Of a stretch of DNA of 64,000 nucleotides, positions 5,791 through 60,738 are shown one piece after another. The number at the start of each line of letters is the position of its first letter. Position 1 is the stretch's first letter. The notes beneath the pieces were generated by a model. The model saw nothing but the letters and a program-made list of their open reading frames with translations, was not told the DNA's origin and did no database searches. The DNA lies in the NCBI GenBank assembly GCA_951406725.2, contig OX597817.1, positions 23,684,001-23,748,000 of the forward strand, read 5' to 3'. This DNA comes from Octopus vulgaris. Its lineage: Eukaryota. A program made the translations under genes and the position numbers.

Positions 5791-7621
5791 CTCTCCTTCG
5801 TTCTACAGGGCATACAATATCTACGATTAACCAGACTTTTTTGTTGTGCATGTAAACTAGCAGTATCAGAACTTTAAAAGTTCAGGTCCACAAATATTAG
5901 TAGCTATAGCAGTAATATATTCTAATTGAAATTATATAAATTCAAGAATTTATAATTGAAACTCTCAAAGTCTTGATCGCGAATGTAATATTACCCCCAA
6001 TAACTCAATGCACATATGTTTAACATTCACACCATTCGAATTTCCCTATACTAACAACATCCATATATTTAAACACACTAAGAAAGGATATGAAATATCA
6101 AGCACAAAATCTAGTAGAAGCATATTAACAAAAAAAATAGGGTATAATTTTTGTACATTTTATTTGTAATATTTACACATCAATTAGAAGCACGCAAGAT
6201 GAAAATATAGGTGTTTAATTTTTATACGTAACATGTTTATACACTGAAACATGGAAAAATTCTTCGCTGCAGAAACTATCTTTTAAGTAAAATTATCTTA
6301 AAAGCAAATGCACATGAAAAGCACAATCAGACTGAGACAGATGCTAACCGCTAACAGAATAGTTTTTTTTCCATCGTTACCCCTCGTCAGCTACGGACAT
6401 CGAATGCGTCGTTTTAACCCACTAAGTACAGCTTTACTTTCACCTTTACTGATGTATGCAAAACTCCGTCGAGCTGGAATTATAAATACACAAAAACATC
6501 ATCATTCTTATCCCACCTATCCCAGCAAAAAAATAATAACCAATATATAATATCCACAAAAATAAAGCAAAAAAACAAACTTAAAAATGGACAAACCAAA
6601 AAAGGAGAATAATTAACTAATTAACATGTCTCAAGGAAAGTTACTTCGTTTTTTGCTTGCAAATATAATATACTAAAAGAAATAAATAAATATATCGCTT
6701 AAGATCTTCATATATAGTAAATAGTTGACCTACTTCCTTACACTATCTAGTATCATGTGGTACTGAATTATTTACAAGAATCAAATGCCTTGCTCCGAAA
6801 TGTTGAGTAATTTAAACGGCGTATCTTTTAAAGTATGTACCAGTGAACTTAACAGTATGCCTTTAATATCCTTTCAGTGTATATTCTTTATGTTGATCCT
6901 ATTACCACTTGCTTTATCCTGATTCTACATTTTGATAAGGTTACCTGTTGATTTACTTTCGCTGTTTATCTCATTTCTTTTAATACCTGGCATTATATTC
7001 TTAGTTTTCTCACTTCCACACTCTACTTACGTTTTTAATTCATTTCTTAGTAATTTATTTATATTATTTTTATTTTTAAGAATGCATATCTTACTCTAAG
7101 ACTAACCTATATTTTTCAGCTTCTTATAGCATTTCAATGATGCTCTGTATTATCCGTTATCTCTCTCTTCAACATACCACTTTTATTAATGATTAGAGCG
7201 TACTTCTATTAAGATTTTACGCACAATTTTTTAGGTGACACTGGTAACTACCAGTGTCCGTTCCCATTCAATCTCAAGCATTTGATATTACTACGCCTTT
7301 TAACAAAATTAAGCTCTTATAATACAGTTCTATATTTAAGAGGTGAGGCGTTATGTAAATTATTTACACTATTTATATTTGTTTGATATTTGTTCTCATC
7401 TTGTTTGTTGCTAACACAACGCTTCGTCTGATATACTCTCCAGTCTTCATCGGGTGACTTGGGGAAATTTCTTCTAACCCCGAGATACCGAGTTCGATTT
7501 CAGGCAGAATAATAATAATAATAATAATAATAATAATAATAATAATAATAATAATAATAATAATAGTAATAATAATAATAATATTAATATTAATAATAAT
7601 AATAATAATGATAATAATAAT

Positions 7622-7826
7622 ACATAACAAAAACACCAGGACTTACAAACACATATAACATACAGAAAATTGCACTACTAGGCACTGCACACATCCTACG
7701 CAGAACACTTTCCATACAATAACCATCAGAGCATCACAACAAATCACAGCACATACCCAAGGCACACAGAGCTGCGCTCGGTAGTGAAGTGAAAGCACGC
7801 TATAAAAATAAAAATAAAACTACTGA
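7622..7826 (+). mobile_element. 3' end of an R4/Dong-type LINE inside (AAT)n
   Basis: Nearly identical to 30901-31090 (NIQKIALLGTAHILRRTLSIQ* plus 3'UTR ...gctgcgctcggtagtgaagtgaaagcacgc). Flanked by (AAT)n at 7508-7621 and 7827-7894. Confidence 0.85.
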
Positions 7827-7946
7827 ATAATAATAATAATAATAATAATAATAATAATAATAATAATAATAATAATAATGATAATAATAATAATTACATC
7901 GAAAAATACCTTAGAAATGAGAACCGAGGTTCGAAATTTCCCCAAG

Positions 7947-7990
7947 TTACCTGATGAAAGCTGGTGGGTATATCAGCCGAAACGTTGTGT
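7947..7990 (+). ncRNA. Minimal type-I hammerhead ribozyme-like motif
   Basis: CTGATGA (7951-7957), A, stem II aGCTG...CAGCc, GAAAC (7979-7983), GTT. A degenerate mirror copy lies on the minus strand at ~7415-7458. Confidence 0.6.
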
Positions 7991-8083
7991 TAAGAACAAA
8001 CAAGATGAGGACAAATATCCGTCAAATGTAAATAATGTAAATAATTAAGTCCTTATATCATACATAATACTTTTTTACTCGGC

Positions 8084-8974
8084 TACGAGGTAGTATCAAA
8101 ATGTTCCCGGACTATTTTAATAGATGGCAGCATACGGTTCCGTGTGCAGTGAGAGCTATCAGTGATTCTCATAAGGCAGTGTGCCGAGTGACTTTGCTGT
8201 AATTGATTTGCAAGTTTTGAACTTTGAGTTTCTGTTATCGCATGTATGCTGTAGTCTGCAATTTTTATGATGTGCACGCAGTTGGGACCAAGAGACAATG
8301 TGGAATGTTGTGTTACATTTGCGCAGTCTGCTACAGAGACATTAAGAAAGCTTCGGCAAGGTTACGGTGATGAAGCAAAGGGTCGTACGAAACGTTTCGA
8401 GTGGCACGGGTATTTCAAAAGCGGAAGAACGTCCTTAGAAGACGATGAGCGATCTGGAAGACCTGCCACGAATGTCACCCAAGAAAATGTGGTATTGTAT
8501 GTCGAGAATTCGCCCCTCAGGACCAGACTGTCAATCGGGAGTTTTGAGATATTTTGGAGTGTTTGAGGGGGGACATTCGGTGAAAGCGATCGGATCTATA
8601 GAGCGATATGAATTGGATTCTTCACAGAGCTATCTGCACTAATGTGTTTCTTGCTACAAATGATATGATATTGCCTCTGCACCCGCCCTATTTGCCAGAT
8701 TTAACACCTGTAGACCCCCATCCATTTCCGAGATGAAAATCAACTCAAAGGTCGCCGTTTTAACGCAGTCGTCGAGATCCAGAACGAATCGCAGAAGATC
8801 CTCTGCTCGATAACGGAAAACGACTTCCAAGCCGGATTAAAAAAGTGGCAGGAACAATTGGACCGGTGTATTGCTGCGCAAGGTGACTATTTCGAAGGAG
8901 AGGATGTCGAAAATTAGGTAAATTATGTTTTATTAGACATAAGTAGTCTGGGAACCTTGTGATGCCATCTCGTA
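8084..8974 (+). mobile_element. Mariner deletion-derivative with both TIRs
   Basis: TIRs tacgaggtagtatcaaaatgttcccggacta and (reverse complement) tacgagatggcatcacaaggttcccagacta, with TA ends. Peptides SATETLRKLRQGYGDEAKGRTKRFEWHGYFKSGRTSLEDDERSGRP, PPYLPDLTPVD (YSPDLAP motif, ~8683-8715) and LKGRRF. Confidence 0.92.
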
Positions 8975-59263: not shown

Positions 59264-59301
59264 AATCTGAAGAAGGAAGTTTTGTATTCCGAAATATTAT
59301 T
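59264..59301 (+). ncRNA. Minimal hammerhead-like motif in a (TA)n-flanked cassette (~59160-59411)
   Basis: aat-CTGAAGA-A-GGAA gttttgta TTCC-GAAAT-ATT-att: intact core, 4-bp stem II, loopless stem III. Confidence 0.55.
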
Positions 59302-59684
59302 ATTATTATATCAGTCTATGGGTAATTAAATTATAACTGTTATTATAGTCCACTCTGCATTGTTGTACCATTCAAGACACGCTAAATTTTATTAATTGAA
59401 GAATCAACCACATATATATATATACCAATTGAGGACTGAACACGAAAAGTGGACAGTCAACATGCTAGATATAGATGTCAAATCGTCATTCTCCACAAAA
59501 TATTATGTTCTCAAGTCAAACTCAGCACAATCTTCGGATTCTTTTTAATATGCTAGACCACTGGTTTTAATTGATAAATATTGATTTCTACCCTTAATTA
59601 ATTTTATACACATATATATATATATATATATATACGCACGCACGCACACACACACACACACACACACACACACACACACACATT

Positions 59685-60500
59685 AAAAGCGCTAAGCAGT
59701 GATATGCAAGTATAAAATTGCAACCAGTTCAAATATACCTGAGACATATACAAACCAGAGTAAAACCCATTCATTGCATTTTGTCATGAAGAAAAATTCT
59801 CGATGTATGACAAACAGATGTCAGTTCGCATAACCCTCTACGAAGATCGATGTCTACAGCCACAAGTTATCTTTATAGCCACAGGCAGTGAATGACTATC
59901 TCACGGGAATCGCTTTGTCTCAAACTTATTTGAACTGGTACCAAGTATACATTTATATACGTCACTGCTTAGCGCTTCTAGCCTGTATTTTACGGCCAAG
60001 CCGCCTATTAGCACAAACAGTCACAGTTATTTGACTGGAATATAATAAGAGGGACCTGATCTTACTTTGTCAGTTCTATCACAAAATGCATGGAATTTCT
60101 TTGTCAGAGGTTCGAATGTGTCTAGATAGAACATTTTACAAATGGTAACAAGTTACTATTTGTACATATCACCTCATAGCGCTATTAATTTTCATTTTTA
60201 CATTATTACAGCCGGGCCACCAATTAGGGCAACCAGTTACAGTTTATTGACTTGCATATAATAAAAGAAACCTGGTCTTTCCTTCTCGTTTCGTAGCGCC
60301 TCTTTTTCCAATATTTGATACGAAAGAGTAGATAACTATTTCGAATGCATGCATCTATAGACTCCCCAACTTGGTGTGTTTTCACCTTTTTTTACCACAG
60401 CTAGAACTCTTCTCTATGACAAAATGTTGTGAACAGCTTTCTGATGGGTTCGAATATGTCTCAAGTATATTTGAACCAGTACCAAGTTTTCATATATATA
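59685..60500. repeat. Old ~200-bp repeat: one inverted copy plus three direct copies
   Basis: agcgctaagcagtga..accagttcaaata..tgagaca (59688-59750) is the reverse complement of 59912-59975. Direct paralogs at ~60075-60288 and ~60410-60495. Confidence 0.65.
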
Positions 60501-60574
60501 TATGTAACTACGTGTGGATTGTTGGTGATTTTTTCCTCCGTCTTTCTTTTCTCTTAGACTTTACTCTACCTTCA

Positions 60575-60609
60575 GTTTCTGAAGACGTGCTTTGCCCGAA
60601 ACGTTAAAC
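60575..60609 (+). ncRNA. Minimal hammerhead-like motif in a (TA)n-flanked cassette (~60510-60710)
   Basis: gttt-CTGAAGA-C-GtGC ttt GCCC-GAAAC-GTT-aaac, with stem I gttt/aaac. Confidence 0.6.
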
Positions 60610-60738
60610 ACCCTCTCTTTCCATTCCTGAGCGTCTTATTAAAACTTGCATGTACCATGTCCTCGCGTTGTTGTTTTTTCCTTGTATTTTTTCTGCATTT
60701 TTTGGATTAATTATATATATATATTTGTGTGTGTGTGT

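What the first reader, a model, noticed from the sequence alone, without database searches (positions are those of the whole stretch)
7323..60710. Recurrent microsatellite-embedded mini-elements carrying minimal hammerhead-ribozyme-like folds (candidate PLE/retrozyme system)
Seen in the sequence: at least seven short (about 150-550 bp) non-coding cassettes, mostly unrelated in sequence and usually sandwiched between (TA)n or (AAT)n tracts. They share one architecture: stemI-CTGANGA-(usually 1 extra nt)-stemII-GAAA-N-N'TH-stemI'. Examples: 7947-7990 (GCTG/CAGC), 18561-18597 (GTTGC/GCAAC), 20935-20973 (tcttt/aaaga; GAGC/GCTC), 41983-42022, 43555-43602 (minus strand), 59264-59301 (GGAA/TTCC) and 60575-60609 (gttt/aaac). 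The stems differ in sequence but still pair, which argues for conserved RNA structure. Stem III is loopless or palindromic (AC|GT, AT|AT, ACATGT, ACAGCTGT). Established: Penelope-like elements and retrozymes carry minimal type-I hammerheads that can fold as dimers. Inference: several PLE-derived families targeting (TA)n/(AAT)n have seeded ribozyme cassettes at roughly one per 10 kb here. I cannot tell from this window whether these families are already catalogued.
Basis: partly seen in the sequence, partly recalled or inferred. Interest (0 to 1): 0.72.

Follow-up and report, generated by a model that had tools for sequence, protein, structure and literature searches.

The report
Penelope retroelement tail stubs with hammerheads
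These short cassettes are cut-off tail ends of seven high-copy repeat families, five of them traced to Penelope-like jumping genes, a known kind whose tails carry a predicted self-cutting hammerhead RNA; the one unusual family has a tRNA-like segment just behind its gene that likely acts as an RNA polymerase III promoter and spawns SINE-like short copies.

Summary
The folds are real and above chance (5 descriptor hits against 0.40 in shuffles; 17 against 3.1 in 400 kb of unseen DNA), but only 3 of the 7 window copies have a literal CTGANGA. Each cassette belongs to its own family of over 1,100 candidate copies whose majority sequence forms the minimal hammerhead described for Penelope-like elements (PLEs) in 2014. 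Five families run upstream into RT/GIY-YIG genes (Poseidon-, Neptune-, Hydra- and Nematis-type motifs); one has intact ~4.5-kb elements with the ribozyme in both terminal repeats. The cassettes are 5'-truncated, decaying PLE ends, not retrozymes. (TA)n targeting holds for four families; the (AAT)n tract is part of one element. Two details go beyond what I found in print: a fixed A6U core in a young family, and a Poseidon-type family (7323-8066) whose gene is followed by a tRNA-like head (30 of 30 loci), with most short copies starting at that head. This scan noted that family before, in this genome and another. Cleavage and Pol III transcription are untested. Verdict: known kind, one interesting variant.

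The parts
7323..7471 (-).
7471..7507 (+). Family A, remnant (positions 31-67 of 74) of the tRNA-like head, including the B-box region
7508..7894 (+). Family A internal (AAT)n tract, interrupted at about 7628-7825 by the 3' end of another retroelement (95% like 30944-31080, which follows an endonuclease-like frame; R4/Dong type is my recalled label)
7896..8066 (+). Family A body: 3' terminal repeat of a Poseidon/Penelope-type PLE; hammerhead 7947-7990 (family: GACAC CTGATGA A GGCTG..CAGCC GAA ACGT T GTGTT)
18551..18698 (+). Family B stub; U3-A8 hammerhead 18561-18597, AATT palindrome; window copy has A6G; gene link weak
20907..21101 (+). Family C stub between (TA)n tracts: 3' end of a young Neptune-type PLE; hammerhead 20935-20972 with family-fixed A6U core
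41546..42109 (+). Family D stub between (TA)n tracts: 3' end of a second Neptune-type PLE; U3-A8 hammerhead 41980-42022, ACATGT palindrome
43482..44193 (-). Family E stub: 3' end of a Hydra-type PLE; hammerhead 43555-43602 with family U4C core and ACAGCTGT stem III; window copy has G17
59213..59392 (+). Family F stub: 3' end of a PLE with Nematis-like endonuclease motifs; hammerhead 59262-59312, canonical core
60502..60712 (+). Family G stub; canonical minimal hammerhead 60575-60609, same stem II as family C; no gene found upstream

Best explanation
The cassettes are 5'-truncated 3' ends of seven high-copy repeat families, five shown and two likely to be Penelope-like retroelements, and each carries the predicted minimal hammerhead that such elements keep in their terminal repeat. 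Likely mechanism: the element's RT/GIY-YIG protein nicks AT-rich DNA ((TA)n for the families with a zinc-finger linker), starts reverse transcription at a fixed point near the RNA 3' end and usually stops early or switches strand, leaving short stubs and inverted pairs; because the hammerhead lies 100-200 nt from that end, nearly every stub has it. In the master RNA the ribozyme would cut weakly, as a dimer through its palindromic stem III or with the protein's help; the dispersed copies are likely inert and decay. In family A the gene is followed by a tRNA-like head, and short copies mostly begin at it, likely because polymerase III starts there. Shown here: families, folds, gene links, fixed 3' and variable 5' ends, flanks. 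From papers on other PLEs: nicking, internal priming, tail, dimer or protein-assisted cleavage. Inferred: cleavage by these RNAs, Pol III use.
For: Copy number: 2696, 1611, 1137, 1474, 4120, 1151 and 3584 first-look candidates (lower bounds). Family majority rows give seven hammerheads with different but paired stems, 5 with C3-G8 and 2 with U3-A8. Family C: 6 of 8 loci picked for long frames have open frames over 1,000 aa with RT (Pfam RVT_1 E 1e-7) and C-terminal GIY-YIG, and 5 of 8 have the ribozyme pattern in both terminal repeats about 4.5 kb apart. Same-strand endonuclease upstream in 6 of 30 C, 8 of 20 D, 3 of 20 E and at least 8 of 20 F loci (Pfam GIY-YIG E 5e-7 for D, 9e-4 for E). Family A: head, (AAT)n and ribozyme follow the stop codon in 30 of 30 endonuclease-anchored loci (3 are one duplicated insertion) and the head in 19 of 20 more; relatives carry RVT_1. 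(TA)4 at the 3' end: C 29 of 29 and 29 of 30, D 18 of 19, E 13 of 19, G 11 of 19, background 12.5%. Inverted partner in 10 of 20 A loci, tail at one end. Reads of another organism share only the ribozyme with family C. Papers.
Against: No gene found for G in 50 loci; for B only one weak fragment (blastp E 0.1). Pfam GIY-YIG scores for family C stay under the curated cut-off and Pfam found nothing in the family-A frame. No sign of cleavage: copies do not start at the predicted cut site (about 1 of 30 A and 0 of 30 C exactly there) and RNA reads show no pile of ends there. A6U and U4C cores are expected to be slow (PMC3088659). (TA)n preference is weak or absent in B (4 of 19), F (5 of 19) and A (0 of 19). 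The head scores only 13.6 bits with the Rfam tRNA model in one copy, nothing in another, and ARAGORN finds no tRNA. Clade names rest on motifs, not on a tree.
Confidence: 0.88

Rival explanations
1. The cassettes are non-autonomous non-LTR retrozymes: small units cut out of tandem transcripts by their hammerheads, circularised and re-inserted.
For: Short, non-coding in the window, type-I hammerheads; G and B not firmly tied to a gene; retrozymes are reported as PLE derivatives (bioRxiv 10.64898/2026.07.22.740005).
Against: 0 of 150 loci have a second same-strand ribozyme within about 3 kb by strict patterns; 5' ends vary continuously and run into genes; no copies start at the cut site.
Confidence: 0.05
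2. Family A short copies begin at the head because reverse transcription folds back or stalls at the TGCCC-NN-GGGCA palindrome at the head start, not because polymerase III starts there; the tRNA likeness is an old passenger.
For: Several inverted pairs join exactly at that palindrome (L039, L043, L228, L251, L256); weak Rfam and ARAGORN scores.
Against: A and B boxes match consensus at tRNA positions 8 and 52-62 in the majority head, a spacing seen 0 times in 8 Mb of shuffles; many head-starting copies have no inverted arm; no T4 run in the majority head and body.
Confidence: 0.35
3. Family A is a free-standing tRNA SINE that merely borrowed a PLE end.
For: 20 of 25 head-anchored loci start within -12..+4 of the head and 0 of 25 extend into a gene.
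Against: The head sits about 31 nt behind the stop codon in 30 of 30 endonuclease-anchored loci, so it is part of the coding element; 4,903 endonuclease candidates.
Confidence: 0.07
4. The motifs are chance matches in AT-rich, microsatellite-rich DNA.
For: Window copies carry core mismatches; the relaxed descriptor gives about 0.4 false hits per 64 kb.
Against: Excess over shuffles in and out of sample; 3,336 exact matches to the intact family-A pattern, 0 for the reversed control; family majorities are better hammerheads than the window copies.
Confidence: 0.01
5. The dispersed copies are kept by the host as working ribozymes.
For: Family-A sequence is present in RNA reads of a related organism.
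Against: Change from majority is similar in core (1.7%), stems (2.2-4.6%) and free loop (2.8%), and the CpG of stem III is changed in 29% of cells.
Confidence: 0.03

Closest known systems
Minimal hammerheads of metazoan PLEs (Cervera and De la Pena 2014, PMC4209133; parts 1-2 of 4 read)
   Same: Type-I fold, unpaired nucleotide after A9, G10.1-C11.1, palindromic or absent stem III, U3-A8 variant, many unrelated families per genome, mostly single dispersed motifs from truncated PLEs, some opposite-strand pairs.
   Different: A family-fixed A6U core (C) and U4C core (E) are not in the parts I read; no tRNA-like head mentioned there.
Neptune, Nematis, Penelope/Poseidon and Hydra clades, including Hydra-1_Obim (Craig et al. 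2021, PMC8557442; passages, supplement searches and supplement part 2 of 59)
   Same: Partial tandems, inverted 5'-truncated copies, 30-40-nt tail, (TA)n preference tied to the zinc-finger linker; family E has the Hydra CxCX5C linker, no CxxC inside GIY-YIG and the Hydra-type fold with an extra nucleotide on both sides of stem II; an octopus Hydra element with hammerhead and (TA)n target is already listed.
   Different: The listed Hydra-1_Obim ribozyme has other stems than family E; none of the cores in their table has A6U or U4C; I could not compare with Repbase or Dfam entries.
PAc, Poseidon element of Anolis (Frangieh et al. 2024, PMC11167929; main text read)
   Same: Tail from internal priming, AT-rich nicking, hammerhead in the terminal repeat; family A has the same linker-less endonuclease type.
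   Different: PAc's gene starts inside the ribozyme and no tRNA-like head is described; family A copies scored here are all broken (longest open frame 362 aa among 150).
Schistosome SINE-like hammerhead repeats, Sm-alpha/Sj-alpha (seen second-hand in passages of PMC6765202)
   Same: Polymerase III promoter followed by a hammerhead.
   Different: Those are non-coding tandem repeats; here the promoter-like head lies inside a protein-coding PLE and copies are single or inverted pairs.
Metazoan non-LTR retrozymes (PMC7229834, passages)
   Same: Type-I hammerhead, probable use of PLE proteins.
   Different: Retrozymes are 150-450-bp tandem units with mostly canonical ribozymes and circular RNAs; these are truncated PLE ends without tandem units.

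Membership tests
EN+ Penelope-like elements | One ORF with RT and C-terminal GIY-YIG endonuclease | tested here: met
   Family C intact frames, RVT_1 E 1e-7, GIY-YIG below cut-off but with CCHH motif; D, E, F endonuclease ends; A by homologues
EN+ Penelope-like elements | Same, for families B and G | tested here: inconclusive
   B one weak fragment, E 0.1; G none in 50 loci
EN+ Penelope-like elements | Partial tandem forming pseudo-LTRs with a hammerhead in each | tested here: met
   Family C: cassette at both ends in 7 of 8, ribozyme pattern at both in 5 of 8; not seen for the other families
EN+ Penelope-like elements | Inverted 5'-truncated copy and optional 30-40-nt tail | tested here: met
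   Family A 10 of 20 inverted, tail at one end; inverted hits also in B, D, E, F searches
EN+ Penelope-like elements | RT groups with PLE clades in a tree | not tested
   Clade labels rest on linker and CCHH motifs as defined in PMC8557442
Minimal PLE hammerhead | Conserved core CUGANGA / GAAA / UH, or U3-A8 | tested here: met
   Met in majority rows of A, B, D, F, G
Minimal PLE hammerhead | Same core, families C and E | tested here: not met
   One fixed change each: A6U in C (30 of 30; 25 of 25 readable), U4C in most E copies
Minimal PLE hammerhead | Unpaired nucleotide after A9 and palindromic stem III | tested here: met
   Extra nucleotide 6 of 7 families, palindrome 6 of 7
Minimal PLE hammerhead | Self-cleavage as dimer or with protein | not testable with these tools
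   No genomic or read-end sign of cutting
Non-LTR retrozymes | Head-to-tail tandem units of 150-450 bp, one ribozyme each | tested here: not met
   0 of 150 loci by strict patterns
Non-LTR retrozymes | No coding parent continuous with the unit | tested here: not met
   Five families run into genes
Non-LTR retrozymes | Circular RNA expression | not tested
   Only three fragment libraries of another organism were laid
tRNA-derived SINE (family A short form) | A and B boxes at tRNA spacing | tested here: met
   Majority head of 28 loci: boxes at 8 and 52, T8, A14, T33, G53-C56, A58, C61 in register; 0 matches in 8 Mb of shuffles
tRNA-derived SINE (family A short form) | tRNA cloverleaf recognised by a model | tested here: inconclusive
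   Rfam tRNA 13.6 bits, E 5.2 in one copy, none in another; ARAGORN 0
tRNA-derived SINE (family A short form) | Defined 5' end at the head | tested here: met
   20 of 25 head-anchored loci within -12..+4 (two pairs are both arms of one insertion); 9 of the 19 ribozyme-anchored loci that have a head
tRNA-derived SINE (family A short form) | Separate non-coding element with a LINE-derived 3' end | tested here: not met
   Head is inside a coding PLE; 3' end is PLE repeat and tail
tRNA-derived SINE (family A short form) | Transcribed by polymerase III | not testable with these tools
   Only indirect: no T4 run in majority head and body; none in 1,271 nt of one parent frame, P about 0.06

The most novel reading that the evidence does not exclude
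A protein-coding Penelope/Poseidon retroelement captured a tRNA gene as an internal polymerase III promoter in its terminal repeat. One element then made two products: long coding copies and thousands of SINE-like copies of its own ribozyme-bearing tip, and the coding RNA itself, which lacks T4 terminators where I could read it, may have been a Pol III transcript. Alongside it, a currently active Neptune family keeps a hammerhead with U at the 'invariant' position 6 across species, implying a rescued or non-cleaving function.
Probability: 0.45. Interest if true: 0.65.

Novelty: new member of a known kind. Interest (0 to 1): 0.38.

Why it matters
The main observation is an expected by-product of a PLE-rich animal genome and was described in 2014. 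It matters modestly as annotation: much of the 'non-coding cassette in (TA)n' signal in this genome is PLE debris from at least four clade types. The tRNA-headed family would be a route to SINE birth that does not involve LINEs and a possible Pol III-driven coding retroelement. The young, intact family C offers a natural test of the open question of what PLE hammerheads do, because its core carries a change expected to slow cleavage.

Tried and rejected
Rfam on the window: only microsatellite-driven miRNA matches among the 150 shown; no gathering-level match in 10 family-A loci. The repeat finder was swamped by microsatellites. No PLE coding remnant in the window itself by tblastn with my seed proteins. 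Cut-site-anchored 5' ends: looked for, not found. Core-versus-flank comparison: flank rates are inflated by truncated copies and T-run length changes, so I used only the loop as the neutral control; 1 of 30 A and 3 of 30 C rows were dropped as non-homologous. Minimum-energy folding gives stem II in all seven and stem I in some but does not model hammerhead cores or the dimer reliably. Search for a full-length family-A element among 20 loci with longer frames: none found. Search for runs: no RNA holder listed. The three laid libraries look unstranded and come from an organism that lacks family C proper, so they say nothing on promoter or strand. Lunse et al. 2017 on PLE hammerhead variants is not held; it and its supplements may already list A6U or U4C. 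Literature searches that found no PLE with a tRNA or Pol III head; no natural A6U. Repbase, Dfam and the repeat library of PMC13282606 were not compared, and bioRxiv supplements were closed, so the families may be catalogued.
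Full report
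Observation. The seven stretches exist as quoted, in a 35% GC window dense in (TA)n, (CA)n and (AAT)n. Only 7947, 59264 and 60575 have a literal CTGANGA; the others have one to three differences. A relaxed descriptor finds 5 of 7, against 0.40 per shuffle and 0 in the reversed sequence. Because it was written after seeing the hits, I repeated it on 400 kb not chosen for content: 8 against 1.73 and 9 against 1.40, about one net hit per 29 kb. The window (eight copies by homology) is somewhat richer than that. The host genome has 2.8 billion bases in 227 contigs; earlier scan notes on the same genome call it an octopus, which I did not test.

Families. Each cassette retrieved 1,137 to 4,120 first-look candidates (lower bounds, best 40 scored). 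Alignments of 19-29 other copies per family show the window copies are decayed versions of clean folds. Stem II / stem III / stem I: A GGCTG-CAGCC / ACGT / GACAC-GTGTT; B GTTGC-GCAAC / AATT / CTA-TAG; C GAGC-GCTC / ACGT / TCTTT-AAAGA; D GGTTC-GAACC / ACATGT / TTT-AAA; E GGGATAT-ATATCC(T/C) / ACAGCTGT / GTCT-AGAC; F GGAAT-ATTCC / AT-rich hairpin / GATAT-ATATC; G GAGC-GCTC / ACGT / GTTT-AAAC. Cores: canonical in A, F, G; U3-A8 in B, D; A6U in C; U4C in E. These top hits are chosen for likeness to the window copy, so I checked A and C on loci anchored outside the ribozyme: the same majorities hold, A6U in 25 of 25 readable C copies.

Link to genes. C: upstream frames read as GIY-YIG; 15,264 endonuclease candidates; of 8 loci fetched for long frames, 6 have over 1,000 aa with RT, a CX4CXXC linker and GIY-YIG with CCHH, inside partial tandems of about 4.5 kb with the ribozyme in both repeats in 5. 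D: CX4CXXC linker and GIY-YIG upstream in 8 of 20. E: CxCX5C linker, no CxxC inside GIY-YIG, 3 of 20. F: short linker with CCHH, at least 8 of 20. By the definitions in PMC8557442 these are Neptune (C, D), Hydra (E) and probably Nematis (F) types; no tree was built. B extends about 700 nt upstream to one weak endonuclease-like fragment. G gave nothing in 50 loci but shares stem II and a downstream motif with C.

Ends and flanks. Family C has a fixed 3' end and 5' ends from 17 nt after to over 1,475 nt before the cut site: ordinary truncation. (TA)4 follows the 3' end in C 29 of 29, D 18 of 19, E 13 of 19, G 11 of 19, F 5 of 19, B 4 of 19, A 0 of 19, background 12.5% (unbiased samples C 29 of 30, A 0 of 30). 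No head-to-tail units. No excess of copies starting at the cut site. In family A, core, stems and loop have changed at similar low rates and the stem-III CpG at 29%, leaving 9 of 29 intact. In RNA reads of another organism, only the ribozyme of family C is covered, with variation at position 17, the loop and the CpG but none listed (threshold 20 in 100) at U6: selection acts on master elements and includes U6.

Family A. Upstream of the body lie an (AAT)n tract and a 74-nt head. The head pattern has 2,165 exact matches and the intact ribozyme pattern 3,336, reversed controls 0. My first reading was a free SINE. A note from this scan (e1-9598556) suggested the head lies inside a coding element; three ribozyme-anchored loci (one duplicated insertion) showed a PLE frame just upstream, and 30 of 30 endonuclease-anchored loci have the head about 31 nt after the stop. 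The frame lacks the linker zinc finger, the Penelope/Poseidon type; 4,903 candidates, all 150 scored with frames of 362 aa or less; no full-length copy in 20 more loci. The majority head has A and B boxes and several invariant tRNA positions in register though models barely score it. Short copies start at the head in 20 of 25 head-anchored loci; among 30 ribozyme-anchored loci 9 start there, 3 in the spacer (2 are fold-back joins), 5 run into the gene (4 from one duplicated insertion), 2 start inside the head and 11 have no head in direct orientation. A palindrome at the head start could also explain this edge. T4 terminators are absent from the majority head and body and from 7 of 8 parent frames, weak support as these are one family. 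In the window, A is an inverted pair (7323-7471 and 7471-8066) whose tract took a later insertion.

Mechanism. Shown: truncated PLE ends with fixed 3' ends, inverted pairs, tails and (TA)n flanks. From PMC11167929 (main text): a Poseidon protein nicks AT-rich DNA, primes internally (the tail), and its hammerhead cuts only with protein and is dispensable for insertion in vitro. From PMC4209133 (parts 1-2): minimal hammerheads are silent as monomers and weak as dimers. Inferred: the same applies here; the stubs are inert.

Comparison and novelty. The architecture, the extra nucleotide, the palindrome, U3-A8, family diversity and dispersed single motifs are all in PMC4209133; (TA)n targeting and an octopus Hydra element with a hammerhead are in PMC8557442 and its supplement; recently active Penelope families are tabulated for an octopus in PMC13282606 (passages; the word hammerhead does not occur in its main text). 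U4C is known from a viroid and A6C from a phage, both slow (PMC3088659, passages and section 8). I found no natural A6U and no PLE with a tRNA or Pol III head, but the key variant survey (Lunse et al. 2017) was not held and was seen only through PMC6765202 and PMC7761336 passages. PMC7229834, PMC4824008 and PMC6962438 were seen as passages and the 2026 bioRxiv preprint as part 1 of 5. The scan has noted the tRNA-headed family before. Verdict: new members of a known kind; interest 0.38, carried by family A and the A6U core.

Noticed in passing
window 59425-59612: A (TA)n-flanked repeat next to family F whose frame reads like an RT motif (MLDIDVKSSFST); related copies occur as inverted pairs in L013, L029, L095, L347. 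Probably another PLE-type stub without a ribozyme match.
   Followed up: partly
window 20990-20999 and 60624-60633; reads: Families C and G and related families in another organism keep TTCC(T/C)GAGCG 12-25 nt after the cut site while the flanks diverge; its GAGC could pair with the 3' strand of stem II and switch the ribozyme off.
   Followed up: no
window 41866-41900: A partial, broken second copy of the family-D ribozyme 5' half about 115 nt upstream of the intact one.
   Followed up: no
window 23976-24717, 30496-31080, 31337-31717, 7628-7825: Several fragments of a retroelement with a C-terminal endonuclease-like frame sit beside (AAT)n tracts; R4/Dong type is my recalled label, Pfam gave no match. 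They also land inside family A's own tract (L032, L041).
   Followed up: partly
window 355-876, 8142-8962, 62050-63145: Mariner-type transposase remnants (Pfam HTH_48).
   Followed up: partly
window 1-409, 18746-19144, 51546-51970, 52729-53673 and others; 15049-15433, 55904-56147, 57767-58124, 60737-60988: Two abundant SINE-like families with many copies in the window.
   Followed up: no
L178:7806, L186:4217, L203:4992-5748: Further hammerhead-like families outside the window, one with a GTAC palindrome and one as three copies in under 1 kb.
   Followed up: no
L202:1011, L205:245: Older relatives of family C keep U6 but vary at position 7 (A, G), so U6 is lineage-fixed.
   Followed up: partly
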